NCBI GenBank assembly: GCA_015231825.1
Contig: JADGAV010000002.1
Coordinates: 9,914-73,913 of the forward strand
From: SAR324 cluster bacterium
Lineage (GTDB): Bacteria; SAR324; NAC60-12
Direction of reading: 5' to 3'
Length of the DNA stretch: 64,000 nucleotides
Shown: positions 6,634 through 36,756 of the stretch, piece after piece
Numbering within the stretch: the stretch's first letter is position 1
How the letters are laid out: every line of letters begins with the position of its first letter
Notes under the pieces: generated by a model
What the model saw: only the letters and a program-made list of their open reading frames with translations
Told to the model about the DNA's origin: nothing
Database searches by the model: none
Program-made: the position numbers and the translations under genes

Positions 6634-7281
6634 ATGAAAGCATTTTTTAGAAATTTTATTCCCTTGATATATTTGGGAATCTGCGGGTTGATATTCTTCG
6701 GGTCATTTGTCTCGTCTGCAGAGGCAACATCGACAATTGTTTTTTTGGGAGATTCTTTGACAGAAGGCTATGGATTGGATAAATCCGAAGCGTTTCCCGC
6801 TCTTTTTGAAAAGGAGTTGCAAGCAGAGGGATACAAAGACATCAAAGTAATCAATGCGGGCATCAGTGGGTCTACTTCTGCCAGTGCGATTTCTCGATTG
6901 AAATGGTATTTGCGAATCAAACCCTCCATTCTTGTAATCGCCCTGGGAGCCAATGACGGATTACGAGGATTGGATCCAGATGCTATGAAGAAGAATTTAG
7001 CGACAACCATTCAACTCGCCTTGGATCGCAAGATCACGGTTGTTCTGGCAGGGATGAAAATTCCACCGAATTATGGATTAAAGTACACTGAAGAGTTTGA
7101 AAATGTATATCCGGAACTCTCCGAAAAGTTCAATATTCCGCTCATTCCGTTTCTTTTGGATGGAGTTGCTGCAAACCCTGAATTGAATCTGCCGGATGGG
7201 ATCCATCCCAACCAAAAAGGTCACGAAATCATCGCCAGGCTTGTTTTAAAAGAGTTGCGCCCACTGCTGCCACAATCCTGA
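6634..7281 (+). CDS. tesA: SGNH/GDSL arylesterase (TesA-like acyl-CoA thioesterase I / lysophospholipase), secreted
   Basis: Signal peptide, then block I 'VFLGDSLTEGYG', block III 'GANDGLRG' and block V 'DGIHP' of SGNH hydrolases; 215 aa. Confidence 0.8.
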   Translation: MKAFFRNFIPLIYLGICGLIFFGSFVSSAEATSTIVFLGDSLTEGYGLDKSEAFPALFEKELQAEGYKDIKVINAGISGSTSASAISRLKWYLRIKPSILVIALGANDGLRGLDPDAMKKNLATTIQLALDRKITVVLAGMKIPPNYGLKYTEEFENVYPELSEKFNIPLIPFLLDGVAANPELNLPDGIHPNQKGHEIIARLVLKELRPLLPQS

Positions 7282-7321
7282 AGGATTCCCCATCAATTTT
7301 TCCCTATACTAAAAATATATT

Positions 7322-7987
7322 ATGATTTTACAGGTTCATGAGTTGGTTAAAACTTTTGCGACTTCAGGCATGCTGGATACCATCGAAGTCCTCAGCGGGC
7401 TCAATTTTGATATCGAACAAGGAGAAACGGTCTCCATTGTTGGTCAATCCGGAAGCGGAAAATCGACGCTGCTTTCTCTGATGGCGGGATTGGATCATCC
7501 GACATCCGGAACAATTAAAATAAAAGGTCAAAACTTGAGCGAGATGAGCGAGGAAGCGCTGTCAAAATTTCGCGCGCAGAATATCGGGATTGTTTTTCAA
7601 CAGTTCCACTTGATGTCGCATCTCACGGCCCTGGAAAATATTTCTCTTCCCCTTGAATTGAATCACGACTCTGGAGCCGTTCCCAAGGCGAAAGAAGCCT
7701 TGATTCAAGTCGGCTTGGAACATCGGCAAAACCACTTTCCCCATCAGCTGAGCGGAGGTGAGTGCCAGCGAGTTGCGATTGCCCGCGCCCTTGTGGTGCG
7801 ACCCGCATTGCTGCTGGCTGATGAACCTACTGGAAATTTGGACAATAAAACGGGTGAGCATATTGCCGATCTGTTTTTTGATTTGGTCAAATCGACAAAA
7901 ATGACCATGTTGTTTGTCACTCACAACGAGCACTTGGCAGATCGATGTTTGCGAAAGCATCTCATTAAAGAAGGGCGATTCGTATGA
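7322..7987 (+). CDS. ybbA: ABC transporter ATP-binding protein (YbbA/LolD-like)
   Basis: Walker A 'GQSGSGKST', signature 'LSGGECQRVAIARAL', Walker B 'LLLADEPTGNLD'. A tesA-like gene sits immediately upstream and a ybbP-like gene downstream. Confidence 0.85.
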   Translation: MILQVHELVKTFATSGMLDTIEVLSGLNFDIEQGETVSIVGQSGSGKSTLLSLMAGLDHPTSGTIKIKGQNLSEMSEEALSKFRAQNIGIVFQQFHLMSHLTALENISLPLELNHDSGAVPKAKEALIQVGLEHRQNHFPHQLSGGECQRVAIARALVVRPALLLADEPTGNLDNKTGEHIADLFFDLVKSTKMTMLFVTHNEHLADRCLRKHLIKEGRFV

Positions 7988-10560
7988 GATTGTGGATCAA
8001 GCTCGCCATCAAGGAAATTCGCAATAATTCGCGTTTCAGTTTATTTTTTATCGTCAATTTGACGTTGGGATTGATTGGGTTCATTGCATTGGATTCTTTC
8101 AAAACTTCAATACATCATCACTTGGAAAACAACTCAAAAGCAATCCTGACCGCCGATATCAGTGTGCGTTCCAATCAACCATTCACGTCTCAGGAAATAG
8201 AATTGTTCACCGAGATAATGGGGAAAGATAGCGAGAAGGCCGAACAAATTCATTTCATCTCCATGATTGCCGGAAAGAAGAATTCCAGGATGGTCCGCAT
8301 TATTGGTATTGATGGTCAATTTCCCCTTTACGGAAACATCGTACTAAAAAACGGAGGAGTCGTACAAAGCCAAGAAATACGTGAGCCCTTACTTACTCGC
8401 CACTCTGTCTGGGCTGCGAAGGATTTGATGCTCGCCTTTGAATTTGATGAAGGCGATTCGGTGAAAATAGGACAATCCTCATTTGAGATTGTAGACACCA
8501 TTCTGGAAGATCCGACCAGCACGGCTTCTTTTCTTGCCGGAATTCCCACTGTTTATATGGGGATTGAACAAATCCAAAGTACAGGTTTGGTTCAACTGGG
8601 AAGCCGGATTCGCTATGAACGTTTTTATAAGCTCCCCGTTGGAACCGATTTAGAACTGCTCGAGGAGAAACTCCGCCAAAAACTGGAAGATCTTTATCCC
8701 GGATCACCAAAAATTAGGGTGGAATCTCATAAAGATGCAAGTCAGCAGTTGGGAAGAACCTTGGGATACCTGAATGACTATTTGGGCTTGGTTGCCTTGA
8801 TTGCTCTATTTTTGGCGGGAGTTGGAGCAGCCTATTTATTCCGGAGTTTCCTCACGGATCGATTCAAAGAAATGGCTATTCTAATTAGCCTCGGGGCCAC
8901 TCGAAGAGATGCTTATCTGATGACTTTGGTGCAAATCACCATTCTCGGATTTGTCAGCGCCGTTTTGGCCAGTCTGCTGGCGTATTTGTTTCTTCCCCTT
9001 TTGCCGACCATGTTGGTAAATTTTCTTCCAAAAGGATTTGTCAGTTCGATGGGGTGGAGTAGTTTGGTCCTTGCTTTTTTTATGGGAACTCTGGGCAGCG
9101 TCATCTGCTGCTTACCGATCCTGGCGCGGATCTACAGCCTCAATCCAATTGCTTTATTCCATGAAAATGTGATCCCCACTCGGGTAGACCATCTTCCCTG
9201 GCTTAAAACTATTTTGAGTTATCTTCCCATTTTGGTGATTTATTGGATACTGGCTGTCTGGCAGGCTCATTCATGGATCATCGGCAGTCTGTTTGTCGGC
9301 TTGTTTTTAGGATCGCTTCTCATTTTGGGTTTGGTCGCCTGGGGGCTATTGTCTGCATGCGGCAAAGTGTCCAATCAAAGAGGGGTGACCTCCAAAATTG
9401 CATTAAGAAACCTCAATCGTAACAAAGTTGGTGCAATTTCCTGCTTTCTGGCAATTGGATTGGGATCGCTGCTGATCAACCTTATTCCCCAGATTCAGGG
9501 AGGCCTTCAGGAAGAGATCAGTCAACCGCTCAACGTCAAAGTCCCCAGTTTTTTTCTTTTTGATATCCAACCCGATCAAGTGGATTCGTTGAAAGCCTAT
9601 CTTCAGGAAGAAGAATATCAACTGTCTTATCTTTCTCCGATGATTCGTGCGCGTCTGGAGGAAGTCAACAACAAAACCTTTGACTCCAACCGGGAAGAAG
9701 CGGCTATGACCCGGGAACAGGAAAGGGAACGCCGTTTCAGAAACCGTGGATTCAATTTAACCTATCGAGGTGAATTGAAGGACTCCGAATCATATGTTGA
9801 AGGAAAACCACTTTCCCCCCTTTACAACGCAGACGCCGAAGGACTACCAGAAATTTCATTGGAAGAACGCTTTGCAAATCGCCTGGGACTTCAGATTGGT
9901 GATGAATTGACCTTTGATGTACAGAGCGTGCCGATCACTGGCAAAGTGGTTAATTTCAGGAAGGTCAAATGGAACAGTTTTCAACCGAATTTTTTCGTTC
10001 TTTTTCAACCGGGAGTTTTGGAAGAAGCCCCGAAAACCTTTCTTGCTGGAATTTCTAATGTGGAGGCCGAACGAAAACTTTTGCTGCAAAATGGAATTGT
10101 CCAGCGCTTTCCAAACATTTCGGTCATTGATGTTTCCCGGATTGTCTCACGCATACTGGACATCACGGACCAAATCAGTTGGGCCATTCGAGTGATGGCC
10201 TATCTCTCAATAGTAGCGGGATTGGTGGTATTGTTTTCTATTGCTCGGTACGAAGTTCAGCATCGATTTTGGGAAATCAATCTGCTGAAAGTTTTAGGGG
10301 CACGTTTCGAGGATGTACGCTCAATTGTTCAAATTGAATTTGGTATTCTTGGATTTTTTGCAGCTGTCTTTGGGGTGCTTTTGAGCAATCTGATGTCTTT
10401 TGCAATTGCCTATATCATCTTTGAAAGCATCTGGAGTTTTTCCTGGCTGATGACCTTTTTCAGCATAATCGGTATCAGCCTCCTCAGTGTCGCTACTGCT
10501 CTTTTGGCGACCCACCATCTACTTCGAAAAAAACCATTGGAATTACTGAAAGCCACTTGA
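7984..10560 (+). CDS. ybbP: FtsX-like ABC permease with duplicated MacB-PCD/FtsX modules (YbbP-like)
   Basis: 858 aa; two 4-TM FtsX blocks, each preceded by a large periplasmic domain; ATGA overlap with the upstream ATPase. Confidence 0.8.
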   Translation: MRLWIKLAIKEIRNNSRFSLFFIVNLTLGLIGFIALDSFKTSIHHHLENNSKAILTADISVRSNQPFTSQEIELFTEIMGKDSEKAEQIHFISMIAGKKNSRMVRIIGIDGQFPLYGNIVLKNGGVVQSQEIREPLLTRHSVWAAKDLMLAFEFDEGDSVKIGQSSFEIVDTILEDPTSTASFLAGIPTVYMGIEQIQSTGLVQLGSRIRYERFYKLPVGTDLELLEEKLRQKLEDLYPGSPKIRVESHKDASQQLGRTLGYLNDYLGLVALIALFLAGVGAAYLFRSFLTDRFKEMAILISLGATRRDAYLMTLVQITILGFVSAVLASLLAYLFLPLLPTMLVNFLPKGFVSSMGWSSLVLAFFMGTLGSVICCLPILARIYSLNPIALFHENVIPTRVDHLPWLKTILSYLPILVIYWILAVWQAHSWIIGSLFVGLFLGSLLILGLVAWGLLSACGKVSNQRGVTSKIALRNLNRNKVGAISCFLAIGLGSLLINLIPQIQGGLQEEISQPLNVKVPSFFLFDIQPDQVDSLKAYLQEEEYQLSYLSPMIRARLEEVNNKTFDSNREEAAMTREQERERRFRNRGFNLTYRGELKDSESYVEGKPLSPLYNADAEGLPEISLEERFANRLGLQIGDELTFDVQSVPITGKVVNFRKVKWNSFQPNFFVLFQPGVLEEAPKTFLAGISNVEAERKLLLQNGIVQRFPNISVIDVSRIVSRILDITDQISWAIRVMAYLSIVAGLVVLFSIARYEVQHRFWEINLLKVLGARFEDVRSIVQIEFGILGFFAAVFGVLLSNLMSFAIAYIIFESIWSFSWLMTFFSIIGISLLSVATALLATHHLLRKKPLELLKAT

Positions 10561-10563
10561 TTT

Positions 10564-10600
10564 GAGAGGAAGGAAAACCTTCCTCTCTAGATGTATTTTC
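10564..10600 (+). terminator. Rho-independent terminator candidate after ybbP
   Basis: Perfect 10-bp stem GAGAGGAAGG-aaaa-CCTTCCTCTC 4 nt after the stop, followed by a TATTTT-containing tail. Confidence 0.5.
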
Positions 10601-11071: not shown

Positions 11072-13270
11072 ATGAAAAAACAAATAAATATTCCAAAACG
11101 TAAAAAAATGCCTGATCCGATTCGTCGTCAACGTCCTGCTGTTTCGGAGGACGACGCGGTTCGGGAGGAAACGCCTTCTGCACTTGAAGAACCCGAAGAA
11201 AATCGAAGGATTGCAGAAGATGAAGCAGTGGATCTCGAAGAGTATTCTGAAAATCTGGACATGCATAGAAACGATGTTTTTTCTTCTCTGGTACCCACAC
11301 AGGAAGATGATGAATCGAGTTTGCGCTTCAACTTTGTGCGTCCCTTGGTGGACTATTTTAAACATTTGGAACAGACGCTTGTCGACGAATTAAGCGACCC
11401 GGATTCTTTTGACACGGAAGAGATAGAAGGTGAATTTCCTGATGTTGTTGCTCAAGATGAGCTTCAATTTGATGAGTTGAGTATCAACGCCGCGGTGACG
11501 CTTTGCAGGGAGCTTGAGACCTATCTTCGCAGCCGTCTTTCCGATGAGCAGTTCAACGACATTCAATCTGTCTACCTCTTTTATGAGAGCTCTGAACAAT
11601 TGCTGGATATGATCAAACTTCTTTTTATCGGAGATTTGGTTGCCAAGGAAAAAGTTGTCCGGATTTATGGTTCCAAAGTTTTTGGGACATTTAAAGTGGT
11701 TCAAATGATTTTGGATACAGCAGCAATATTTGAAGGAATGGATGAAACTGAAGAACGAAACTCCCGGAAAATGCTGCAAAAATATGCAGAAGATCCCTTG
11801 AGGCAGTTTAAGAAGTTCTTTTTTGCTTCTGAGCAAAAGCAGATTCCCAATACTGGAAGCGGATTGGCGGATGGAGTGCGAAACACCTTGGCCAGCAGAG
11901 AACCTCTGTTTGTAAAAAGTGATGACTATAACAAGATTTTGGTCAATTTCAGGAAATTCATTCTTTCTTTATATGCGGATCCCTTTGTGCTGGAGTATGT
12001 GAAATGGAAAGACAGATATATGCGGCACTGGTTGTTTCATGAACTGCATCAATTGGATATACAGAATATGAAATCCAGTGAAATAAAAATTCCGCAATAT
12101 AGTAACATCAAGTGTAAAATCTATCAGCAGTTGGATCAAAATTTTTCCAGTTTGGAGCGATCAAACCGGATTTTTGATAAATCGTTGGAACTCAGGAAAA
12201 CCCATTTTCTCGCATTTCGTAACGGAGAGTCCTTCATGCAGGGTGCTGAGGAGGCCAGTCGAATGGCCTTGGAGAAAGCAAGGGAACACGAGAAGGCGTT
12301 GCTGGATTCTTTGAATTCTGCACAAATCAATGCAATTGCGGAAAAAATTCACATAGAAATTGCTGAAATTCGACGTAACAAAAAGTTAGCAGGCAAAGCT
12401 CCTCGAAATGTAAATTTGCGTTCTGTGGATATGAGTTCAGAGAAGAAAGCAGAAAAAAAATACATGGCGGCCACTGCCAAAATCCAGATCACCCAATCCA
12501 AACAACGAAGTCTTCCTCCTCCACCTAAATTCCTGCAGGCTATGGGGAAAATCGCTAGAAATTTAGTCATGCGTGGGAAAAGCACAGCTTCCCCTGTTAC
12601 AGAACAAAAAACGCCGGAAACACATTCCCAACCCGACATTCTTCCTCGCGCGGAAGGGAATTTGGAAGGGCCCCTGGAAAAGGTGGAAGTCGATTGGACC
12701 GGATATGGGAAGGAATTCAAGACGACAGTTTACGAACGCACCTTTCCTAATTTACAGGAAAGATTTTTTGAACATGGCCAATTCCAATTGAGGTTAAATC
12801 AGCACTTTATTGAAGCCAGTGATGCAATTCTGGAATATTATAAAGACCTCGGCTATCTTCAATCCACTCGACATAAAATTGCGATTTCTTCCGAAAGCGG
12901 AGATGGCGTCAAAGCCTTTGTGGACGAAGCTATTTACCTCAGAATCAGTGCGGAGATGTTTCTGGCACTGGGGCGAGCTCCATTCAGTAAGAATGCGGAG
13001 CCTACGCACTATCTGCAAATCTATCAAAACAAACCCATAAGAGTGAAAAAAGGGGCGTTGAAAAACATTGATTTTTCAAGAATGGCTGAAGGTCTAAGAT
13101 ATGAATTGGAAGATACTGAAAATGCTGTGGTACTTCGCCCTTTATTGTTTAAAAGTCTAATAAAAATCATTGACAGCCTTCCTGATCAAATCCGTAACCA
13201 GCACCAAGCTTTTCTCAAAGGAATGGTTCGATTTTTAGAAAGCGATCATGCTGCTCAGTCAACCAGTTGA
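11072..13270 (+). CDS. Hypothetical 732-aa cytoplasmic protein, acidic N-terminus, no recognisable domain
   Basis: Long uninterrupted ORF with a plausible start; no TM segment and no Walker, HEXXH or other motif seen; first ~120 aa very D/E-rich; the C-terminal two thirds look alpha-helical. Confidence 0.5.
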   Translation: MKKQINIPKRKKMPDPIRRQRPAVSEDDAVREETPSALEEPEENRRIAEDEAVDLEEYSENLDMHRNDVFSSLVPTQEDDESSLRFNFVRPLVDYFKHLEQTLVDELSDPDSFDTEEIEGEFPDVVAQDELQFDELSINAAVTLCRELETYLRSRLSDEQFNDIQSVYLFYESSEQLLDMIKLLFIGDLVAKEKVVRIYGSKVFGTFKVVQMILDTAAIFEGMDETEERNSRKMLQKYAEDPLRQFKKFFFASEQKQIPNTGSGLADGVRNTLASREPLFVKSDDYNKILVNFRKFILSLYADPFVLEYVKWKDRYMRHWLFHELHQLDIQNMKSSEIKIPQYSNIKCKIYQQLDQNFSSLERSNRIFDKSLELRKTHFLAFRNGESFMQGAEEASRMALEKAREHEKALLDSLNSAQINAIAEKIHIEIAEIRRNKKLAGKAPRNVNLRSVDMSSEKKAEKKYMAATAKIQITQSKQRSLPPPPKFLQAMGKIARNLVMRGKSTASPVTEQKTPETHSQPDILPRAEGNLEGPLEKVEVDWTGYGKEFKTTVYERTFPNLQERFFEHGQFQLRLNQHFIEASDAILEYYKDLGYLQSTRHKIAISSESGDGVKAFVDEAIYLRISAEMFLALGRAPFSKNAEPTHYLQIYQNKPIRVKKGALKNIDFSRMAEGLRYELEDTENAVVLRPLLFKSLIKIIDSLPDQIRNQHQAFLKGMVRFLESDHAAQSTS

Positions 13271-13304
13271 CTCCCTTGTTAACTTTTAAAATCCCCTTTT
13301 TTGT

Positions 13305-14348
13305 ATGTTGAAACCACGCACCATCGTTATCTGTTTGACTGTCATAATTTTGACAGCCTGGAGTGCAGCGATTGTTGCTGTTGAAAACCTGGCAGTCAAA
13401 TCAGCAATTGATAAAACTGTCCTCACAACAGGAGATTTTTTAGTTTTTCAAGTTGAAGTCTCTCATCCAGGTCATATTCAATTGAAGCCTATTTCCTTGA
13501 ATCAGTATTTTGAAGAGGGAATGGATGTGGAGCCTATTGTACCCAGTGAGTCTCCAATGGACTCTTCTGAAGAAGGAAATTGGCTGTCCCGATGGTGGCC
13601 TTTTGAAAAGGAAGAAAAGGTCTCTCTCCAAAATACATTCTGGTCCTGGCGACTTTGGCCAACTCGGGAAGGTTCCTGGACCATCCCAGAAATCTCAATC
13701 CAGAGTGTCCAAACTGATAAAGAAGGAAACTCTGCTCTCTTTCACGGCAGTACTCAGACCTTGACTTTTACTGTGAACTCAATTTTCAAAGACCAGGAGA
13801 ATCCGGTCCTGAAAATAAATAAAAATATGCCTGAAGTTCCTCTGACTATCCCCTGGCTTTGGTTGACCACGGCAGGAATCATTGTGATTTTCCTCGGCCT
13901 TGCATGGGTGTTTTACAAACGCAGAAAACGTCCACTTGAAGTTGAAGCTGAAGAGCTGCCGCACGAGCGGGCACTCCGTCGATTGAAGGAGTTGGAACAG
14001 TTTTTGTTGACTAATCCTCAGGAGGTTCATCAATACTACTATTTGCTTTCAGAAATATTTCGCGAGTATTTGGAAAAGCGATTTGGATTCTCCGCAAGCA
14101 GCATGACTACACAAGAATTCTTGCCCATGCTGGAAGCAGAAACATCCTATACTGCTGAGGAGCGAAACCGGATTGTTTTACTGACCCAAAAGTCTGATTT
14201 GATAAAATATGCAGAGGTTTCGCCCATGCGCAAAGAAATGGATGACGCATATCGGGAGGTGATCGAACTGGTTGAAAGAACGGCTTATATTGGCGAATCT
14301 GATCCGGATGAAGAAACAAAACATCGAAAATTCCGGGAGGCCTCATGA
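13305..14348 (+). CDS. BatD-like periplasmic domain fused to a single TM and a DUF4381-like cytoplasmic tail
   Basis: Signal peptide 'IVICLTVIILTAWSAAIVAV', then a ~170-aa beta-rich periplasmic region, the TM 'WLWLTTAGIIVIFLGLAWVFY' followed by a KRRKRP stop-transfer, and a helical tail ('ALRRLKELEQFL') resembling DUF4381. ATGA coupling to the VWA gene. Confidence 0.45.
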   Translation: MLKPRTIVICLTVIILTAWSAAIVAVENLAVKSAIDKTVLTTGDFLVFQVEVSHPGHIQLKPISLNQYFEEGMDVEPIVPSESPMDSSEEGNWLSRWWPFEKEEKVSLQNTFWSWRLWPTREGSWTIPEISIQSVQTDKEGNSALFHGSTQTLTFTVNSIFKDQENPVLKINKNMPEVPLTIPWLWLTTAGIIVIFLGLAWVFYKRRKRPLEVEAEELPHERALRRLKELEQFLLTNPQEVHQYYYLLSEIFREYLEKRFGFSASSMTTQEFLPMLEAETSYTAEERNRIVLLTQKSDLIKYAEVSPMRKEMDDAYREVIELVERTAYIGESDPDEETKHRKFREAS

Positions 14349-15337
14349 GGTTCGAAAGTCCCTGGCTGCTATTACTTTTGCTGATGGTCCCTCTTTGGTG
14401 GTGGTTCCTGACTAAAAATCGTAAATCTCAGTTTGTCCATTTTTCAGGGGTGGGCACTCTGCAATCATTTGCACGTAATTCCTGGTGGAGTCATCCCCTT
14501 TTCCTACCGGCTATCCGATGCCTGGTTTTGATTCTGTTGATTCTCACTATCGCCCGCCCTCAGACTGGGCGATCTTTTTCAAAGATTTTAACAGAAGGTG
14601 TGGACATCGTCTTGGCGTTGGATGTGTCAGGAAGCATGCGTGCCCTTGATTTGAAGCTCAATAATGAAAGAGTGACACGCCTTGAAGTATTGAAAAAAGT
14701 GGTTGGAGAATTTATAGAAAATCGTCTCAATGATCGTGTTGGTATTGTTGTTTTTGGAGAAGAAGCATTCACTCAAGCGCCGTTGACGCATGATCACAAA
14801 TTACTGTTAGGATTTTTGGAGCAGATTTTTATTGGATGGGGAGGGGATGCAACGGCGATTGGAATGGGAATTGGCCACAGTGCCAAGCGTTTAAAAGATT
14901 TAAAGGCGCCCACAAAACTGATCATTTTAGCAACCGATGGCCAAAATAACGCGGGCCACATCACACCTGCCGAGGCAGCCAGGGCTGCCAAAGATCTTGG
15001 TATAAAAATATATACGATCGGGGTTGGATCCCGCGGAAATGCCCCCATCGAAGTCGACAGTGTTTTCGGGAAAAAAATTGTAAATGTCCCGGTTTCGATT
15101 GATGAGGAAACGCTGACCAAAATTGCGGAAACCACCGGAGGACGCTACTTTCGTGCAACGGATACCGAGTCTCTTCAGAAAATTTATCAAACCATTGACG
15201 AATTAGAAAAAACCGAAGTGGAAGTGAAGGAATATTATGAATATGAAGAGCAATATGCAGTTTTCCTGATCCCAGCCCTTCTGCTTTTTCTTTTGGAATT
15301 TATTTTGGCTCGTACTCGTCTGAGAAGATTACCCTAA
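14345..15337 (+). CDS. BatA-type von Willebrand factor A (VWA) domain membrane protein
   Basis: Two N-terminal TMs, MIDAS motif 'ALDVSGSM', 'LATDGQNN' and 'TIGVG', plus a C-terminal TM; topology identical to BatA of Bat aerotolerance operons. Confidence 0.8.
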   Translation: MRFESPWLLLLLLMVPLWWWFLTKNRKSQFVHFSGVGTLQSFARNSWWSHPLFLPAIRCLVLILLILTIARPQTGRSFSKILTEGVDIVLALDVSGSMRALDLKLNNERVTRLEVLKKVVGEFIENRLNDRVGIVVFGEEAFTQAPLTHDHKLLLGFLEQIFIGWGGDATAIGMGIGHSAKRLKDLKAPTKLIILATDGQNNAGHITPAEAARAAKDLGIKIYTIGVGSRGNAPIEVDSVFGKKIVNVPVSIDEETLTKIAETTGGRYFRATDTESLQKIYQTIDELEKTEVEVKEYYEYEEQYAVFLIPALLLFLLEFILARTRLRRLP

Positions 15338-15421
15338 AGGTGCGGAGTGGAAACGGCTTGCAAAATAAGAAATTGTTGACTTCATTGTACGGTCTGCAGC
15401 AATGCTTTAAAGGATTTTATT

Positions 15422-15910
15422 TTGAATAATTTTGAAAAAAGAATCATTACAGTATGTCTGGTGCTTACCTTTTCGTGGATTTACTTTTCGGGATCTTATC
15501 TGATGGCTGCGCCGCCGGGTTTGATCATATTGGAAAGAGCGGAGAGCGATTTAGACTTTTTTCAAGAAGAACTCACTCGTGTCACTCGATCGTTGGGACC
15601 TTCTCCAGAAAGTCAGGGGATTCAATCCATGATCGTGATGATTCATAATCTGAAACGTGAATTGTGGCTCGCGAAAAAACTGCTTCTGGTGAAAGATGCG
15701 GTGAAGTCGGAGCAAGACAAACAAGCGGTCAAGTTTATTGTCGGACAAGACTTTGATGAACTGATTGCTGAAGCACAAAAAATTGTCACACAGCTCAAAT
15801 CGAGTTTACGACGAACCCGCCATGGGAATTTGTTTCGATATAATGACGAATTGGCTCAATTTCTTGAAGTTTACATCGAAGGTCTGCGCTTTGTGCAATC
15901 CAATCTCTGA
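15422..15910 (+). CDS. Hypothetical small exported protein
   Basis: 162 aa; N-terminal hydrophobic signal or anchor, then a helical charged domain; no identifiable family. Confidence 0.4.
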   Translation: MNNFEKRIITVCLVLTFSWIYFSGSYLMAAPPGLIILERAESDLDFFQEELTRVTRSLGPSPESQGIQSMIVMIHNLKRELWLAKKLLLVKDAVKSEQDKQAVKFIVGQDFDELIAEAQKIVTQLKSSLRRTRHGNLFRYNDELAQFLEVYIEGLRFVQSNL

Positions 15911-16094: not shown

Positions 16095-16286
16095 ATGAAA
16101 TCTTTACAAGTGAGAGAGGTCCCGGAACACATTTAAAAGAAATTGCTCGAAGAATCCAAAAATAATCACCGCAGCTTGTCACAGCAGGTTATAGCCGCGT
16201 TAGCCCGGGGGTTGGACACTCCGCTTTCCCCGAAAGCAAAAAGAAGAGAGCTTTTGGAAAAAATAGGAATGAGGGGATTCAATTAG
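16095..16286 (+). pseudogene. VapB/FitA-like antitoxin remnant with in-frame TAA at codon 14
   Basis: ATG at 16095 encodes 'MKSLQVREVPEHI*KKLLEESKNNHRSLSQQVIAALARGL...', which matches the FitA/VagC 'VRNLPDEVHRALRVRAAQHGRSMEAEVREIL' pattern. The stop codon at 16134-16136 is in frame. Confidence 0.5.
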
Positions 16287-16338
16287 AGATTAAGCCTGCA
16301 AGAAAGCCGGTCGAATTAATTCGAGGAGACAGGGATCG

Positions 16339-16722
16339 ATGATTTTAATGCTGGATACAAGCGTTGCTTTTGAACTTGTTCTCAATCGCGAAAATTCCAA
16401 TAAGTTCAGTTACTTTTTGTCAGAAGCAGATTGAGTTGTTGCTCCGGGTATCTTCATTTAGGAAGTCACCAATGTTTTCTGGAAATACTTCCGGTTTGGT
16501 GATATTCCATTGGAACAATACGAAGAACTTATCGATTCTTCAATCGGAATTGTTGATGAGTTCGTAAACAGCCAGGAACTCTGTCGGTAAACTTTTCCCA
16601 TGTCCTGCATGATGCAGTATCCGACTTGTGACATACTTTTCATTACACTCGCCAAAAGATATAGTGGAACGCTGTTAACTCACGATAAGAAATTGCTCAA
16701 GATTGAAAAAAACAATCAGTAA
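16339..16722 (+). pseudogene. VapC-like PIN-domain toxin remnant with three in-frame stops (TGA, TAG, TAA) and no frameshift
   Basis: One frame of 128 codons reads 'MILMLDTSV...SEAD*VVAPGIFI*EVTNVFWKY...ELCR*TFPMS...YPTCDILFITLAK...LLTHDKKL'. The PIN signatures (DTSV, xYEV, D..L..A, LLT.D) are kept, and the TAG sits at the conserved Tyr of 'YEV'. Confidence 0.55.
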
Positions 16723-17025: not shown

Positions 17026-18429
17026 ATGAATCATTCTATCAGAGAACGACTACAGCAAACTTTGGCAAAAGGAGGACATTGGACAGAATTCCGTTATCAC
17101 AATCGGCGCAGCAGGATTTTTGGAGTACGCAAGGGAGAAGTCGATGAAATGAGTTCCAAACACTATGAAGGCGTCGGGATCCGAGTTTTGATGAATGGCT
17201 CATGGGGATTTGCCTCGACATCCGATTTATCCATCGAAGGTTTGGAAAAAGCCTTGGCGGATGCAGAAAATCTGGCTGAGGCACTCAGTTTCCGTAAACA
17301 GCATAAGTCTCAGATTGCAGAAAGTTCAAAGTTGGCACGAGGAGATTTTTTTATTGAAGGGTATGAAGAACTGTTTGCCATGCCTATTGAGGAAAAATTT
17401 GACTTTGTCAGAAAAGCGGAAGAGCAATTGAGCCAGGAAGCGGAGAAAATTGAGGCAGCTGCCTGCCGTTACACGGAAATGTTTGAGGACAAAATTATTT
17501 TAACCTCCGATGGTGCCGACTGCCACATCAAATTGGCTCGCCCAGAGCTTCGTTTGATTGCCTTTGGAGCCGACGGCAGTCTCCATTCCAAAGGGTTCGA
17601 GAGTGTCGGAGGTACGGGCAATTGGGACTGTATGTTTCGTAACAAACCTGTTGAAAAGATGATTGAAGGTGCTGCTTCCGAAGCAGTCGAAATGCTCAAT
17701 GCTCCCGAAGGTGATGGTGGAAAAAAGACAGTGATTCTTTCTCCTGCAATGGTTGGCTTGCTCAGCCACGAAGCCATCGGTCATACGGTGGAAGCCGATT
17801 TTGTTAAGTCCGGTTCTGTGGCGGGAGAAAAGATGGACCAGGAAGTTGCTTCCTCTCTTGTTACTCTCTGTGACAGTGGATATAGCGAATACACGGAAGG
17901 AGCGGGGGGAGAGCTTCCGGTAGATGATGAAGGGATTCTGTGCCAAAAAACCCCTATTATCAAAGATGGGAAACTGGTGAGTTTTCTTCACAATCGGGAA
18001 ACAGCTGCAGAGTTTGGAGTTGAACCGACGGGTAACGCCAGAGCATGGGTATTTAGTGATGAGCCATTGATCCGAATGCGCAACACCTATATTGAACCCG
18101 GTAATGATCAATTAAAAAATATGATATCCGAAATTGAAGATGGTTATTTTATTGACGGTCCTGGTGGCGGGCAAGCGGATGCCACCGGCGAATTCATGTT
18201 CGGCGCCAGCAAAGTCCGCCGCATACAAAATGGAAAATTGAGCGGGCATGTTAAGGAACTGACCGTTTCCGGAAAAGCTTTTGAAGTTTTACAATCAGTG
18301 GATGCGGTAAGCCAGGATTTTAGATGGGATCTTGGTGCTGGCTATTGCGGAAAGGGACAGCCAGCCAAAGTCGATGCGGGAGGACCTTATCTAAGATGCC
18401 AGGTTCTGGTGGGAGGTGCCCAAACATGA
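17026..18429 (+). CDS. tldD: TldD metalloprotease
   Basis: 467 aa; 'HEAIGHTVEADF' HExxxH zinc motif plus the Gly-rich C-terminus of the TldD/PmbA fold. Confidence 0.85.
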   Translation: MNHSIRERLQQTLAKGGHWTEFRYHNRRSRIFGVRKGEVDEMSSKHYEGVGIRVLMNGSWGFASTSDLSIEGLEKALADAENLAEALSFRKQHKSQIAESSKLARGDFFIEGYEELFAMPIEEKFDFVRKAEEQLSQEAEKIEAAACRYTEMFEDKIILTSDGADCHIKLARPELRLIAFGADGSLHSKGFESVGGTGNWDCMFRNKPVEKMIEGAASEAVEMLNAPEGDGGKKTVILSPAMVGLLSHEAIGHTVEADFVKSGSVAGEKMDQEVASSLVTLCDSGYSEYTEGAGGELPVDDEGILCQKTPIIKDGKLVSFLHNRETAAEFGVEPTGNARAWVFSDEPLIRMRNTYIEPGNDQLKNMISEIEDGYFIDGPGGGQADATGEFMFGASKVRRIQNGKLSGHVKELTVSGKAFEVLQSVDAVSQDFRWDLGAGYCGKGQPAKVDAGGPYLRCQVLVGGAQT

Positions 18430-19799
18430 TGACTCCAAAAGAACAAACGGCGATGTTGTTGAAAAACAGCGAAATTATGATCGACGAGATTAAGGGAGAA
18501 GGAACCCAAAGTGAGGTCTGTGCCCAGCACTCAGTAGATTTGAGTGTTGTTTACGAAGGAAACGATTTTTCGGTCAGCAAAAGCAACACCACGTCTTCCT
18601 ATGGAATTCGTGCGATTGTCGATGGAAAGCTAGGGTTTATGACCTCCAATTCAAGCAGTGATCAGATGCTGCGGGAAATTGCTTTAGAAACGAGGAAACT
18701 CGCGATGCTTTCTGTTTCGAGCGAACATCATCAGATTGCAACTGCTATGGAAAAGCACGGATATTCCGAGAATTATGACCCTTCAACAGAAATGCTGCTG
18801 CCTTCTGATTTATACAATATGCTGCAACTGATGGTTGATGAGGTTCACAAAGAGAAGAACATCTCTCTTGATCGTGCCGAAATTTCCTGCTCCCGGCAAT
18901 ATTTCACCCTGACGAATTCCAATGGATTTTCTCAGCAAGCGGCTGCTTCTGATTTTTCCTGGTTTGCCATGGGGATGGGAAAGACGAAAAACGAAGTGAC
19001 CAGCTTTGACTATGATGGAGGAACGGTCAGAGACCGTTCCGCTCTCGAGAACGAGATCATTCAGACTATGGAACGGTTTCGACAGTATGTAGGAAGCTCA
19101 TTGGGGCCTCGCCAGGCAAAGGATTATAAAGGTGCGATCCTTCTCCATCCAGCAGCAGTGATGAGTATTCTTGGGCAAACAATCAGTTTCAACGCAAACG
19201 GAAAAAATCATTTGGATGGCATTAGTGCCTGGAACGAGCAAATGGGTCAGCAAGTGGCTTCTGAGACACTGCTGGTTGCCGAAGATCCTTTGGATGAAAA
19301 TCGACCGGATGGCTGGAGTCCATTTGATCGGGAAGGAGTGACAACGTCTAGGCACCAAATTATCGATGCGGGACACTTGAATTTTGCGGCACATAATTGC
19401 TTCAGCGCGCATCAAGCCGGTATTCAGCCTACAGGAAATGCTGCAGGAGGAGCAACGGGATTACCGCAAATCGGATTTTCCAATTTGAAGATTTCCGGAG
19501 TCGAGGGAAAAGCGCTTTCTGAAGAGTTACTCTATCAGAAGTTGGGGACAGGTCTGGTGCTCAAACGTTTCAGTGGAAGTTGCGATCCGATTTCTGGACA
19601 ATTTTCAGGAGTGGCAAAAAATTCATGGTGGGTGGAAAATGGTAAACGAAGCCATGCGGTGCATGAAACTATGGTTTCTGGAAACGCATTTGATGTCCTG
19701 AAACAAATATTGGCAATTGGTTCTCAGCTTCATGTTAATCTGGGGGGCAGCCAGGCTCCCTACATACTGATTGATGGTGTCAGCGTGACCGCGGGATGA
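18426..19799 (+). CDS. pmbA: PmbA/TldE partner protein
   Basis: TldD/PmbA-family fold without HExxxH. The start is ATG 18426 (ATGA overlap with the tldD stop); the track's 18324 start is an out-of-frame extension. Confidence 0.8.
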   Translation: MMTPKEQTAMLLKNSEIMIDEIKGEGTQSEVCAQHSVDLSVVYEGNDFSVSKSNTTSSYGIRAIVDGKLGFMTSNSSSDQMLREIALETRKLAMLSVSSEHHQIATAMEKHGYSENYDPSTEMLLPSDLYNMLQLMVDEVHKEKNISLDRAEISCSRQYFTLTNSNGFSQQAAASDFSWFAMGMGKTKNEVTSFDYDGGTVRDRSALENEIIQTMERFRQYVGSSLGPRQAKDYKGAILLHPAAVMSILGQTISFNANGKNHLDGISAWNEQMGQQVASETLLVAEDPLDENRPDGWSPFDREGVTTSRHQIIDAGHLNFAAHNCFSAHQAGIQPTGNAAGGATGLPQIGFSNLKISGVEGKALSEELLYQKLGTGLVLKRFSGSCDPISGQFSGVAKNSWWVENGKRSHAVHETMVSGNAFDVLKQILAIGSQLHVNLGGSQAPYILIDGVSVTAG

Positions 19800-30734: not shown

Positions 30735-33266
30735 CTAGTTATTTGCAGGGAACTGAGAATGCTTTAAACGCAGGGCATTCAGTGTGACAAAAATAGAACT
30801 GAAAGCCATTGCAGAGGCTGCAAAAAGAGGATTGACCCATCCCATCATGGCCAGAGGAATTGTCAAAGCATTATATGCGAGTGAAATTCCAAGGTTTTGC
30901 CGAATCACCTGAGTCGTTTTTTGGGATATTTGAAGCAGTTCGACCGCACCGTTTAATTGTGATTGCAATAAAACGACATCCGCGGCTTCCAAAGAGATAT
31001 CTGCGGCATTTCCGAGAGCCACACCGAGATCTGCCTGCTGAAGAGATGGAGCATCGTTGATTCCATCTCCAAGCATCATCACCTTTTTTCCTGACAGCTG
31101 CAGTTTTTGAAGATATTCCAGCTTCTGATCCGGCATCAAATTTCCATGTGCCTGGTCAATTCCAAGCTGTTTTGCAATAAAGTCTACAATTTCTTGCCGG
31201 TCTCCGGATAAAATATGAATATGTTTCCCTGCTTTTTTTAAGGATTGGATACTTTGTTCTGCTCCATTGCGAAGCTGATCTTTTAGAATCAGTTGACCGC
31301 AAAGAATTCTGTCGATGGCAACAAATACTTCAACGTTCGGAAGTGTTTTGGAAACCCGAACTGAATTTTCTGTTTTTTCGGGGACGAAGACTTGATTGGT
31401 GTTTAGAAATTCACGATTGCCAACTAATATTAAACGATTGTCGACTTGCCCGGAAATGCCCTTTCCAGGGTGCTGTTCAACCGAGCCGACTTTGAAAGCG
31501 GATGCCGTCAGAGATTTTTTTTCTCCAAAAAGCCTGAGTGCTTTAGCAATCGGGTGATTGACTTCGGCCTCCAATGAAAGAGCTAGTCTGAACCAGTCTT
31601 CAAACCGTGAAATTGATAGATCTTGAACAGAAATCACCTCCATTTCCCCGGAGGTGAGTGTCCCGGTCTTGTCAAAAACTATCTCACTCATTTCGGATGC
31701 CTGTTCCAGGATATCTCCACCTTTGATCAGGATTCCTCTTTTTGAAGCAATTCCGGTGCCTGCCAGGATTGCGGTGGGAGTGGCAAGACTCAACGCACAG
31801 GGACATGCAATGATGATGACCGAAACGGCAATGTACCAGGCCGGTTGCGAATGTGGTGTGCCTAAAAATGTCCAGTAGGCCCAGGTGCCGAAGGTGAGCA
31901 GCAAAACAACCCAGACAAACCATGAGGCAACACGGTCGGCGATTCGCTGGATGCGCGTTTTTTTCTGAGTCGCCTGTTCGATCATTTGAACCACCCGGTT
32001 CAGCATGGTTTCCCGACCGACTGCAGTTGCTTTCATCACAAAGCTTCCGTTTTGACTGATACTTCCTCCAATGACAGAGGATTTTTCATTGACAAAACGC
32101 CACATGGATTCTCCAGTCAAAGCAGATTCATCGATCTCAGCCTTGCCGGTCATGACAATGCCATCCACTGGTATGGTATCTCCCTGACGCACCAGCAGCA
32201 GATCATTGGTTTGAATGTTTTCATGTGGAATCAGCGTTTCCTTGTTGTTGGCAGAAATCAGGGTAGCAAATTGGGGAGAAAGCTGAGTCAAACGCTCTGT
32301 AATGGAGGAAACCTGATTTTTGGTCAAATGCTCCAATGTTCGGCTGATCAGAAGAAAAAAGGTGATCATCGTGCAGGAGTCAAAGTAGGTACTTTTTGCA
32401 TTGCTCATCAGTGCGACTACGGATGCTGAAAAAGTGACTCCGATTCCGAGGGAAATCAAAAAATCCATATTCGGTTGGCGAATCTTCAAAGCACGCCAGG
32501 CCCCTTGCCAGAAAGGAACGGCAGAGTAAAAAATAACTGGCAGCGTCAGCACCCCGGAAATAAATTCAAACAAAAACTTGTACTCGTCTTCAATGCCGCT
32601 GAAGTATCCTGCATAGAGGGAAACACTGAGCATCATCACGTTCCCCGCACAAAATGCTGCAACTGCCAATCTTATGACCATCTGGCGGAAAGCATCCCGA
32701 CTTTTTTGCTCTTGAATTGAGGCATCATAAGGCAATGCGGAATAACCAATCTGTTGAAATCTCTGCAGTATCTCTGAAAAATGAGCTTCATCCGGATTCC
32801 AGACGACATGGGCCCGGTGATTTCCAAAATTGAGAGAGGCCTCGACGACTCCTTTTTGTTTAAGAAGAAATTGCTCTATCAGCCAAATACAGGCGGCACA
32901 ATGAATTCCATCCACCATTAAATCTGCTGAATTCAAACCATCTTTATTTTTTTGAATATACAGCTGAGCCACGTTGTCTTGATCATATCGACTGAAATCG
33001 TCATTGGTTTTAGCAGATAACAATTGAGAGATAGTTTCTGAAGGAGTCTTTTCGCGTTTCTGGTAATAGGCGTCCAACCCGCTTCCATTGATGAATTGCC
33101 AAACAGAGGCACATCCGTAACAGCAGAACAGTTGTTCAGGTGCGGAATCTATCGCAATTCTTTCTTTAGCCAAAGGGAGCAGGCAATGGCCACAAGCCAT
33201 TGATTCTGAAGTTGAAGCTGCCTTTTTTAAAGAGCTCATCAAAAGGGAGGAAGGCAAAGTCGCCAT
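30735..33266 (-). CDS. ccoI: Copper-translocating P1B-type ATPase, cbb3-oxidase-associated
   Basis: N-terminal CxxC region, HMA-like 'DGIHCAACIW', 'CPC' in TM6, 'DKTGTLT' phosphorylation site, 'GDGINDAP'; terminal gene of the cco operon. Confidence 0.85.
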   Translation of the reverse strand: MATLPSSLLMSSLKKAASTSESMACGHCLLPLAKERIAIDSAPEQLFCCYGCASVWQFINGSGLDAYYQKREKTPSETISQLLSAKTNDDFSRYDQDNVAQLYIQKNKDGLNSADLMVDGIHCAACIWLIEQFLLKQKGVVEASLNFGNHRAHVVWNPDEAHFSEILQRFQQIGYSALPYDASIQEQKSRDAFRQMVIRLAVAAFCAGNVMMLSVSLYAGYFSGIEDEYKFLFEFISGVLTLPVIFYSAVPFWQGAWRALKIRQPNMDFLISLGIGVTFSASVVALMSNAKSTYFDSCTMITFFLLISRTLEHLTKNQVSSITERLTQLSPQFATLISANNKETLIPHENIQTNDLLLVRQGDTIPVDGIVMTGKAEIDESALTGESMWRFVNEKSSVIGGSISQNGSFVMKATAVGRETMLNRVVQMIEQATQKKTRIQRIADRVASWFVWVVLLLTFGTWAYWTFLGTPHSQPAWYIAVSVIIIACPCALSLATPTAILAGTGIASKRGILIKGGDILEQASEMSEIVFDKTGTLTSGEMEVISVQDLSISRFEDWFRLALSLEAEVNHPIAKALRLFGEKKSLTASAFKVGSVEQHPGKGISGQVDNRLILVGNREFLNTNQVFVPEKTENSVRVSKTLPNVEVFVAIDRILCGQLILKDQLRNGAEQSIQSLKKAGKHIHILSGDRQEIVDFIAKQLGIDQAHGNLMPDQKLEYLQKLQLSGKKVMMLGDGINDAPSLQQADLGVALGNAADISLEAADVVLLQSQLNGAVELLQISQKTTQVIRQNLGISLAYNALTIPLAMMGWVNPLFAASAMAFSSIFVTLNALRLKHSQFPANN

Positions 33267-33955
33267 AAATCATTTGCAATGAAGTGATTCCAAAACAGTC
33301 TGATTCCCATCAAGATTACAATGATCCCGGCGAATTGAACTGATCGAAAGCGAAAATGAGGAGAAATCTTGGAAATGATGGTTCCTGTAAGAAGAATTGC
33401 AGGAGAAGTAATTAGACAAAAAGTGAGCATGATCAGCATGCCCCTGACGAGCGAATTGGATGCAAATGCCTGCATTTCTGCAGCCCACATCAGTCCGCAG
33501 GGGAGAATTCCGGAAATCATTCCCAGCGGCATAACACGCCAGGGAGAATTACTCAACTGCCAGCGTTGAAGGGATGGGATCAGCCAGCTCATACTTTTTG
33601 ATATCCATAAAGCAATATTTTCAGGCCATTTTTGTTGAAACAAAGAGGAAAGCCCGCCTGCAATTAAAATTACGCCTGCCAGCAAACCACCTAAATCACG
33701 CCAGTTCGAATCAGGAGTCATCGCAGTATAAAAAGCCATTCCCAAAGTCCCCAGCAGGGCGCCTATCCATCCGTAAGCCAGTAATCGTCCTGCCATGTAA
33801 GCACTGTGAAATTTCCACAGTGAACGAGTATTCGATTGTTCGATAGAAAGTGAGTAGGTCGAGCAAATCGCGCCGCACATTCCAGCACAATGCAGACTTC
33901 CGGTTAGACCAAGCAAAACTAAGAATGTCAAATCAATGGCAAAAATACTTTCCAT
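33239..33955 (-). CDS. DsbD_2/UreH-like transmembrane protein (TauE-like fold) with HCxxMCG motif
   Basis: 238 aa, ~6 TMs; 'GSLHCAGMCGAI' in TM1 and a second Cys pair 'ILPCGLMW'. Overlaps the ccoI start by 28 nt, which suggests translational coupling. Confidence 0.5.
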   Translation of the reverse strand: MESIFAIDLTFLVLLGLTGSLHCAGMCGAICSTYSLSIEQSNTRSLWKFHSAYMAGRLLAYGWIGALLGTLGMAFYTAMTPDSNWRDLGGLLAGVILIAGGLSSLFQQKWPENIALWISKSMSWLIPSLQRWQLSNSPWRVMPLGMISGILPCGLMWAAEMQAFASNSLVRGMLIMLTFCLITSPAILLTGTIISKISPHFRFRSVQFAGIIVILMGIRLFWNHFIANDLWRLCLPPF

Positions 33956-34089
33956 GGTTTTGGAAACGGGGGAATCCCCTTAGAAATCCAAGGCCCCGGG
34001 AGTATAGGGAAAGAGATGAATTTTGGCGGAAATTCACCTCTTTCCTTTCCGGGCGGCACGCCTTTCGGAATTTCTAAGGGGAGGGGGTT

Positions 34090-35951: not shown

Positions 35952-35960
35952 TTTCAGTTC

Positions 35961-36536: not shown

Positions 36537-36545
36537 TGCTCCTCC

Positions 36546-36737: not shown

Positions 36738-36756
36738 CTTTCCCTTTATTTTGAAA

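What the first reader, a model, noticed from the sequence alone, without database searches (positions are those of the whole stretch)
11072..15910. Stand-alone Bat-like VWA membrane module with an unknown 732-aa partner and no MoxR/DUF58
BatA-type VWA proteins and DUF4381/BatD proteins normally sit in operons led by a MoxR AAA+ ATPase and a DUF58 protein (Bat aerotolerance, MoxR-VWA systems). Here a BatD/DUF4381 chimera and a BatA-type VWA protein are translationally coupled (ATGA overlap), but nothing upstream carries a Walker A or AAA+ signature. The upstream gene is instead a 732-aa acidic cytoplasmic ORFan, and a 162-aa exported ORFan follows downstream. The four genes are co-directional, tightly spaced, and bracketed by a terminator (10564-10600) and a decayed TA locus. 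This could be a Bat-type envelope system driven by a different, uncharacterised cytoplasmic component, which would be an undescribed variant.
Basis: partly seen in the sequence, partly recalled or inferred. Interest (0 to 1): 0.62.

Follow-up and report, generated by a model that had tools for sequence, protein, structure and literature searches.

The report
Orphan Bat VWA pair plus signalling-type partner
A SAR324 bacterium carries only two membrane genes of the widespread but still unexplained "Bat" envelope system, without the usual MoxR ATPase, and next to them sits a lineage-specific cytoplasmic protein from a small family that looks like a signalling module rather than a replacement motor.

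Summary
The four ORFs, the ATGA overlap and the absence of MoxR/DUF58 are real. No AAA_3, DUF58, second VWA or STAS gene lies anywhere in the 64-kb window.

The "BatD/DUF4381 chimera" (347 aa) is not unusual. It is the homologue of the 366-aa protein that overlaps BatA by 4 nt in canonical MoxR-DUF58-Bat operons. The locus is therefore a detached two-gene sub-module of a Bat operon. It is conserved in 10 SAR324 loci, none with MoxR/DUF58 within about 10 kb.

The 732-aa protein is not an ORFan. It belongs to a small, apparently SAR324-only family (30 cluster representatives, several paralogues per genome). A confident model (pLDDT 81.8) matches no solved fold, and the protein has no P-loop. Other family members carry N-terminal STAS or REC domains or follow a STAS gene, which points to a signalling output or scaffold.

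The BatA-linked subfamily is monophyletic and keeps its position in 5 loci despite changed flanks. It is absent from 5 sister loci and frameshifted in the closest relative. It is therefore an accessory, probably regulatory, partner and not a MoxR substitute. This is a new variant of a known kind, of moderate interest.

The parts
10564..10587 (+). Perfect 10-bp GC-rich hairpin directly after the stop of the ybbP-like permease gene. It is a likely terminator that isolates the module from the upstream ABC transporter genes.
   Evidence: -20.6 kcal/mol, z -4.44; sequence. The consensus terminator scan did not call it because the T run is interrupted.
11072..13270 (+). 732-aa cytoplasmic protein of an undescribed family found so far only in SAR324. 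Residues 1-80 are acidic and disordered, 81-497 form a large helical domain, 498-535 a low-confidence linker, and 536-731 an alpha/beta domain. It has no TM segment and no P-loop.
13305..14348 (+). 347-aa bitopic membrane protein. It has an N-terminal signal or anchor segment, a BatD-like periplasmic domain (about residues 35-134), a TM segment (about 183-205), and a cytoplasmic DUF4381-type helical tail after a KRRKR stretch. It is the homologue of the protein that overlaps BatA in canonical Bat operons.
14345..15337 (+). 330-aa BatA-type protein with two N-terminal TM helices, a VWA domain and a C-terminal TM helix. Its ATG overlaps the stop of the upstream gene (ATGA), which suggests translational coupling.
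   Evidence: The periplasmic location of the VWA domain is inferred from the positive-inside rule and from the BB0173 topology in PMC5700661.
14621..14635 (+). MIDAS motif D93-V-S-G-S97 of the BatA VWA domain, intact.
15422..15910 (+). 162-aa small helical protein with a hydrophobic N-terminus (probably exported or anchored). It starts at TTG, with AAAGGA 7 nt upstream. It is a facultative companion of the pair, present in the window, L006/L024, L020 and L026.
17026..19799 (+). TldD/PmbA metalloprotease gene pair. It recurs downstream of the pair (window, L006/L024, L018, L019, L026). It is probably conserved synteny and not shown to be part of the system. The true pmbA start is probably near 18426, not 18324.

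Best explanation
**The core.** The locus is a detached, minimal piece of a Bat (Bacteroides aerotolerance-type, MoxR-associated VWA) envelope system. The core is two translationally coupled inner-membrane proteins.
- The 347-aa protein has a periplasmic BatD-like domain, one TM segment and a cytoplasmic DUF4381 helical tail.
- BatA has three TM segments and a periplasmic VWA domain with an intact MIDAS motif.

In a SAR324 lineage this pair has been separated from MoxR, DUF58 and BatB-E and persists on its own. It is often followed by a small exported helical protein (162 aa) and by tldD/pmbA.

**The 732-aa protein.** It is a lineage-specific accessory. It belongs to a small paralogous family, found so far only in SAR324, of cytoplasmic proteins with a conserved helical core and a C-terminal alpha/beta domain. 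In other members this core sits behind an N-terminal STAS or REC domain or is translationally coupled to a STAS gene. That architecture is typical of a signal-transduction output or scaffold module.

**Inferred history.** One subfamily lost the input domain, gained an acidic disordered N-terminus and was recruited once upstream of the pair.

**Inferred mechanism.** The 732-aa protein most likely docks on the cytoplasmic DUF4381 tail of the 347-aa protein, or on BatA's short cytoplasmic loop. This would couple the periplasmic VWA complex to cytoplasmic regulation, in either direction. It is not an energy source and not a MoxR/DUF58 replacement. The pair works either without a chaperone or with a MoxR/DUF58 encoded elsewhere.

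**Shown versus inferred.**
- Shown: gene content, homologies, synteny, presence/absence pattern, domain fusions, and lack of NTPase features.
- Inferred: membrane topology, physical contact, and direction of signalling.
For: **The pair is a sub-module of canonical operons**
- In canonical operons L021 and L022 the order is MoxR(AAA_3)-DUF58-X-366aa-BatA-BatB-(BatC)-BatD(-BatE). The BatC and BatE positions are separate ORFs only in L021; in L022 the TPR region is fused to BatB and to BatD. The 366-aa gene overlaps BatA by 4 nt.
- The 347-aa protein aligns to those 366-aa proteins at E 4e-15 to 4e-16, full length against L021.

**The orphan pair is conserved**
- BatA orthologues of 61% identity or more form a distinct group above the roughly 55% identical Nitrospinota-type BatA proteins.
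- Ten loci carry the pair and none has MoxR/DUF58 nearby.

**The 732-aa family**
- The word-indexed search of 5.8 billion clustered sequences found only 5 hits. The profile search found 30 hits among 1.84 billion representatives.
- All 8 loci in GTDB species genomes are SAR324, with 3-4 copies per genome.
- Four members are STAS-fused and P0021 is REC-fused (E 3.5e-19).
- A STAS gene lies immediately upstream of L002 and L014 and overlaps the L002 gene. In L004/L016 a divergent cytosolic VWA_2 gene and a STAS gene sit next to RR-SpoIIE.
- The STAS-fused copy P0008 lies near a REC-HATPase_c_2 kinase gene.

**Linkage to the pair**
- The 732-aa orthologues of 48-64% identity are always followed by the 347-aa gene and BatA, after 34-49 nt, while the flanks differ.
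- This subfamily is monophyletic in a neighbour-joining tree.

**No ATPase or known fold**

**Topology**
- TM segments were predicted. The BatA-type protein BB0173 has a periplasmic VWA domain (PMC5700661).
Against: - No direct evidence of interaction or co-transcription exists.
- The 732-aa gene is missing from 5 of 10 loci and frameshifted in a sixth. The pair therefore functions without it, and the association could be historical.
- All 732-positive loci are from one uncultured phylum and mostly from MAGs.
- The neighbour-joining trees have no support values.
- The "signalling" reading rests on domain fusions in paralogues that are 20-43% identical to the window protein, which itself has no input domain.
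- Whether this MAG has a MoxR/DUF58 elsewhere could not be checked. Only 64 kb of a 381-kb contig was visible.
Confidence: 0.5

Rival explanations
1. One reading: the 732-aa protein functionally replaces MoxR/DUF58 as the cytoplasmic component that drives or matures the Bat-type VWA complex.
For: - It occupies the operon-leading position that MoxR/DUF58 hold in canonical operons.
- It is conserved upstream of the pair in 5 loci.
- No MoxR/DUF58 lies in the window.
Against: - It has no Walker A or B motif and no AAA+ or DUF58 profile hit.
- hhalign against the unknown gene of a canonical operon is null.
- The pair persists without it in 5 loci, and it is a pseudogene in the nearest relative.
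Confidence: 0.08
2. The 732-aa gene is only a neighbour. The adjacency reflects shared ancestry within one SAR324 clade, and the protein works in an unrelated STAS-type signalling pathway.
For: - It is lost or absent in half of the loci and frameshifted in one.
- Paralogues sit in quite different contexts without BatA.
- No promoter or terminator evidence ties the genes together. The consensus scans give no more hits than shuffled sequence.
Against: - The adjacency and the short spacer (34-49 nt) are retained across orthologues that have diverged to 48-55% identity, while both flanks were replaced.
- A different paralogue pair sits beside another VWA protein, so the VWA association recurs.
- No hairpin or terminator lies between the 732-aa and 347-aa genes.
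Confidence: 0.27
3. The orphan pair is serviced in trans by a MoxR/DUF58 pair (a canonical Bat operon) encoded elsewhere in the genome. The system would then not really be MoxR-less. This can be true together with the best explanation.
For: - A study of marine SAR324 bins reports a conserved aerotolerance cluster with BatA, TPR and a MoxR-like ATPase (PMC4782131).
- The window shows only 64 kb of a 381-kb contig.
Against: - The top 120 BatA homologues include no second BatA carrying a SAR324 name. They reach down to about 50% identity, so a more divergent paralogue would not be listed.
- The claim could not be tested on this MAG.
Confidence: 0.4

Closest known systems
Bat (Bacteroides aerotolerance) / MoxR-DUF58-VWA operons, as in B. 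fragilis, Leptospira, Borrelia bb0170-0176 and the Nitrospinales locus L021
   Same: - BatA has the same architecture as BB0173: a BatA N-terminal double-TM region, a VWA domain with MIDAS, and a C-terminal TM helix.
- The gene immediately upstream encodes the same BatD-like plus DUF4381-like bitopic protein and overlaps BatA by 4 nt.
   Different: - MoxR, DUF58, BatB, BatC (TPR), the large BatD and BatE are all absent from the locus and from the 64-kb window.
- A 732-aa protein of an unrelated, undescribed family leads the cluster instead. A 162-aa exported protein follows it.
STAS/REC-controlled partner-switching and response-regulator output modules (RsbV/RsbW/RsbU-type systems)
   Same: Paralogues of the 732-aa protein carry N-terminal STAS or REC domains, follow a STAS gene directly, and sit near RR-SpoIIE (PP2C) and REC-HATPase_c_2 genes.
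   Different: - The window copy has no STAS or REC domain, and no STAS gene lies in the window.
- The conserved core matches no known output domain.
- No sigma factor or anti-sigma factor is involved at this locus.
DUF4381 (PF14316) / Leptospira LB_053 family
   Same: The TM segment plus cytoplasmic helical region of the 347-aa protein matches DUF4381 (E 5.9e-6) and LB_053_fam (E 4.1e-7).
   Different: - The scores are below the curated cut-offs: 27.1 against 27.2 bits for DUF4381, and 29.5 against 200 for LB_053_fam.
- The protein has an extra N-terminal BatD-like periplasmic domain. This domain is also present in the canonical-operon homologues.

Membership tests
Bat / MoxR-associated VWA system | BatA-type protein: BatA N-terminal double-TM domain plus a VWA domain with a MIDAS motif | tested here: met
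   PF07584 at 36.1 bits, PF00092 at 83.5 bits, TIGR02226 at 33.2 bits. DVSGS motif and three TM segments.
Bat / MoxR-associated VWA system | Adjacent MoxR-type AAA+ ATPase (AAA_3, PF07726) | tested here: not met
   None in the 64-kb window (Pfam on all sizeable ORFs; motif scans). None within about 10 kb in 9 related loci. Present in the canonical controls L021 and L022.
Bat / MoxR-associated VWA system | Adjacent DUF58 (PF01882) protein | tested here: not met
   Same scans as for MoxR. DUF58 is found only in L021 and L022.
Bat / MoxR-associated VWA system | Further Bat genes: BatB (second VWA), BatC (TPR), large BatD, BatE (SH3/TPR) | tested here: not met
   The window holds no second VWA, TPR or multi-domain BatD protein.
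Bat / MoxR-associated VWA system | BatD-like/DUF4381-like bitopic protein encoded immediately upstream of BatA and overlapping it | tested here: met
   BLASTP E 4e-16 and 4e-15 to the 366-aa proteins of L022 and L021. The same 4-nt overlap is present.
DUF4381 (PF14316) | Score at or above the Pfam gathering threshold | tested here: inconclusive
   27.1 bits against a cut-off of 27.2. The precomputed annotation lists PF14316 for this protein and several orthologues.
AAA+ / MoxR, considered for the 732-aa protein | Walker A and B motifs and an AAA+ alpha/beta core | tested here: not met
DUF58, considered for the 732-aa protein | Match to PF01882 or a VWA-like fold | tested here: not met
   No hit among the 22 family members, even at E up to 0.1. 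No structural match.
STAS partner-switching module, considered for the 732-aa protein | STAS domain fused to the protein or encoded alongside it | tested here: not met
   The window copy has no STAS domain and the window has no STAS ORF. The feature is met only by paralogues elsewhere.
Known anti-phage defence systems (PADLOC) | Match to any PADLOC model | tested here: not met
   No hits for the four proteins or for three proteins from the paralogue loci (two 732-family paralogues and the L016 VWA_2 protein).

The most novel reading that the evidence does not exclude
The 732-aa family is a new class of STAS/REC-regulated cytoplasmic effector or scaffold that physically couples to VWA-containing complexes. 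It would couple to the membrane BatA/DUF4381 pair here and to a cytosolic 651-aa VWA_2 protein in the paralogous Che-linked cluster. The orphan Bat pair would then be a transmembrane signalling device, with periplasmic MIDAS ligand binding relayed through the DUF4381 tail to the 732-aa protein. That would give the first mechanistic handle on what Bat proteins do.
Probability: 0.15. Interest if true: 0.65.

Novelty: new variant of a known kind. Interest (0 to 1): 0.4.

Why it matters
Bat/MoxR-VWA clusters are widespread, and after 25 years their function is still described as elusive (PMC3557215).

A naturally minimised version would define the smallest unit that selection keeps. Here that unit is BatA plus its DUF4381-type partner, kept without MoxR, DUF58 or BatB-E across a whole lineage. 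It suggests that the BatA/DUF4381 pair can work independently of the AAA+ chaperone.

The recurrent link between an undescribed STAS/REC-associated family and VWA proteins gives a testable hint that Bat-type complexes take part in transmembrane signalling.

Two things limit the value. The organisms are uncultured SAR324 MAGs, and the partner gene is dispensable in half of the lineages.

Tried and rejected
2. **First structure model: too poor to use.** Built from 5 sequences, it reached only pLDDT 51.6. Rebuilt from 22 sequences, it reached 81.8.
3. **afdb50 fold library: unavailable**.
4. **Genome-contig scan with the 22-sequence alignment: failed** because no stretch was conserved enough. It was repeated with 16 sequences.
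5. **Metagenome-contig scan: no new information.** It returned only the already known frameshifted relative.
6. **Search for a second (canonical) BatA of the same MAG: inconclusive.** It was attempted through names and accessions. No accessions were returned and only the top 120 hits are listed.
7. **The 162-aa protein against the small gene between DUF58 and the 366-aa gene in L021: no similarity**.
8. **Riboswitch or sRNA in the 510-bp leader or elsewhere: none.** Rfam gave no hit in the window.
9. **Promoter and terminator consensus scans: no evidence.** They found no more sites than in shuffled sequence.
10. **A START/helix-grip reading of the C-terminal domain: not adopted.** It was suggested only by very weak Foldseek hits to the Lam4 StARkin domain (probability 0.25-0.28).


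Full report
**Source and observation.**
- The window comes from a SAR324 cluster bacterium MAG. The 732-aa protein is identical to HQM13_02160, on a 381-kb contig.
- The stop codon of the 347-aa gene overlaps the BatA start as ATGA at 14345-14348, behind a GGGAGG.
- A perfect 10-bp hairpin follows the upstream ybbP-like gene.
- A 1.1-kb non-coding stretch with a faint PIN remnant follows the 162-aa gene.

**Domain content of the module.**
- BatA (330 aa) is unambiguous. It matches the BatA N-terminal domain, VWA, and NCBIfam VWA_BatA_Lepto at E 2.7e-56.
- It has three TM-like segments and a DVSGS MIDAS motif.
- This is the architecture of Borrelia BB0173, whose VWA domain was mapped to the periplasm (PMC5700661). 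The periplasmic location here is therefore an inference.
- The 347-aa protein has an N-terminal hydrophobic segment and a weak BatD-like domain. A TM segment at about residues 183-205 is followed by KRRKR and a DUF4381-type helical region.
- Both Pfam scores for the 347-aa protein are marginally sub-threshold.
- The 732-aa and 162-aa proteins hit nothing in Pfam, NCBIfam or PADLOC.

**No MoxR or DUF58 nearby.**
- Every ORF of 90 aa or more in the 64-kb window was either Pfam-scanned or motif-checked.
- All Walker-A ORFs are ABC transporter ATPases.
- The rest of the window is metabolism, transport, a cbb3 oxidase cluster, a PAS histidine kinase and a TetR regulator.
- No AAA_3, DUF58, second VWA, TPR-Bat or STAS gene is present. 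This covers 11 kb upstream and 48 kb downstream of the module.

**The 347-aa/BatA pair is a piece of a canonical operon.**
- BatA homologues of about 52-55% identity in Nitrospinales (L021) and in GCA_014584465 (L022) sit in textbook operons.
- The order there is MoxR(AAA_3)-DUF58-small TPR-like protein-366-aa protein-BatA-BatB-(BatC)-BatD(-BatE). The BatC and BatE positions are separate ORFs only in L021; in L022 the TPR region is fused to BatB and to BatD.
- That 366-aa protein carries the same weak BatD plus faint DUF4381 signature (on record for L022) and overlaps BatA by 4 nt.
- It aligns with the window's 347-aa protein at E 4e-15 to 4e-16, over the full length for L021.
- The "chimera" is therefore the ordinary BatA-upstream partner. 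What is unusual is that only this pair is kept.

**The orphan pair is a SAR324-lineage feature.**
- BatA orthologues of 61-88% identity form a group distinct from the roughly 55% Nitrospinota-type proteins.
- Ten loci carry the pair: the window, L001/L009, L006/L024, L010, L015, L017, L018, L019, L020 and L026.
- None shows MoxR/DUF58 in the available flanks.
- tldD/pmbA follow the pair in the window, L006/L024, L018, L019 and L026.
- The 162-aa gene follows BatA in the window, L006/L024 (67% identity), L020 (52%) and L026.

**What the 732-aa protein is.**
- It is not an ORFan, but its family is very small. The word-indexed search found 5 hits. A profile search of 1.84 billion representatives found 30, of which 19 were below 1e-30.
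- All eight loci in GTDB species genomes are SAR324, with three to four paralogues per genome.
- A 22-sequence alignment gave a confident model: pLDDT 81.8, with 435 residues at 90 or above.
- The model shows a disordered acidic N-terminus (1-80), a large helical domain (81-497), a low-confidence linker, and an alpha/beta domain with an antiparallel sheet (536-731).
- The protein has no P-loop.

**Context of the family.**
- Four members have an N-terminal STAS domain.
- One member has a REC domain (E 3.5e-19).
- Others have a roughly 130-residue helical N-terminal extension or an acidic disordered one.
- A STAS gene lies immediately upstream in L002/L003 (where it overlaps the family gene) and in L014.
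- In L004/L005/L016 two tandem paralogues face a divergent cytosolic VWA_2 protein (636 aa in L004/L005, 651 aa in L016) plus a STAS gene. These sit beside a Che-like cluster with RR-SpoIIE and RR-GGDEF genes and are followed by a metallophosphatase gene (shown in L004/L005).
- The STAS-fused copy P0008 lies 3 kb from a REC-HATPase_c_2 (RsbW-type) kinase gene.
- This is the signature of a signal-transduction output or scaffold module.

**Is the 732-aa gene linked to the pair?**
- For linkage:
  - The closest orthologues (48-64% identity) are always followed by the 347-aa gene and BatA, after 34-49 nt, in five loci.
  - The outer flanks differ. Upstream is YbbAP here, an aminotransferase in L001 and a coproporphyrinogen oxidase in L010. 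Downstream is LytTR in L010 and AzlC in L015.
  - This subfamily is monophyletic and nested among STAS-associated clades in a neighbour-joining tree.
  - A second, unrelated VWA association occurs in paralogues.
- Against an essential role:
  - Five loci have the pair without the 732-aa gene (L017-L019, L020, L026), and tblastn finds no remnant in L017-L019.
  - In neighbour-joining trees of BatA and the 347-aa protein, the 732-positive loci are paraphyletic. This suggests ancestral presence followed by losses.
  - In the nearest relative the 732-aa orthologue has two frameshifts in three assemblies, while all neighbouring genes are intact.

**Interpretation.**
- The best-supported reading is a minimal, MoxR-detached Bat pair with a facultative cytoplasmic partner of signalling type.
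- Contact through the cytoplasmic DUF4381 tail is inferred, not shown.
- A MoxR/DUF58 acting in trans remains possible. Marine SAR324 bins are reported to carry a canonical Bat cluster with MoxR (PMC4782131). This could not be tested for this MAG.
- Bat function itself is unresolved. Leptospira bat deletions have no oxidative-stress phenotype, and the authors raised a periplasmic signalling complex as a possibility (PMC3557215).

**Verdict.**
- This is a new variant of a known kind: an orphan BatA/DUF4381 pair plus an undescribed STAS/REC-associated family.
- Interest is about 0.4.

Noticed in passing
window 30735-38889 (- strand): A cbb3-type cytochrome oxidase cluster. One 710-aa ORF combines COX1 (CcoN) and FixO (CcoO) as a fused subunit. 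It is followed by CcoP, CcoG (Fer4_18 plus FixG_C), FixH, a CcoI-type P-type ATPase and a DsbD_2 protein.
   Followed up: no
window 16143-16722 (+ strand): Short broken ORFs that resemble a VapB-like antitoxin and PIN-domain fragments. Only the last fragment gives a faint PIN hit (E 0.031), so the "decayed TA locus" is plausible but weakly supported.
   Followed up: partly
L004/L005 7559-15181 and L016 6866-12583: Two tandem paralogues of the 732-aa family face a divergent cytosolic VWA_2 protein (636 aa in L004/L005, 651 aa in L016) and a STAS gene. They lie directly after a Che-like cluster (CheA, MCP, CheB, RR-HK, RR-GGDEF, RR-SpoIIE) and, in L004/L005, before a metallophosphatase gene. This looks like an undescribed partner-switching output module.
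   Followed up: partly
L006 108-2232 (also L007, L008, L023, L024): The closest orthologue of the 732-aa gene is split by two frameshifts (reading frames 3, then 2, then 1). The split is identical in three separate assemblies that are 99.93% identical to each other, while the five downstream genes are intact. The gene is probably a pseudogene there.
   Followed up: yes
L017 12376-13722: An IS element (DDE_Tnp_1_4) sits directly after BatA, where L018 and L019 have tldD/pmbA. More transposase genes lie nearby.
   Followed up: no
window 6634-10560 (+ strand): A TesA-like GDSL lipase is followed by a YbbA-like ABC ATPase and a YbbP-like 858-aa duplicated FtsX permease. This is a tesA/ybbA/ybbP-type neighbourhood. 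It ends in the hairpin that precedes the Bat module.
   Followed up: no
window 18324-18429: The mechanical ORF for the PmbA-like gene starts at 18324 and overlaps tldD by about 100 nt. Orthologues in L006, L018 and L019 start with a 4-nt overlap at the tldD stop. The true start is therefore probably near 18426.
   Followed up: partly
L025 3695-4642: A REC plus HATPase_c_2 (RsbW/SpoIIAB-type serine kinase) gene lies 3 kb from the stand-alone STAS-fused family member P0008. This is the same MAG that also carries a BatA-linked copy (L010).
   Followed up: no
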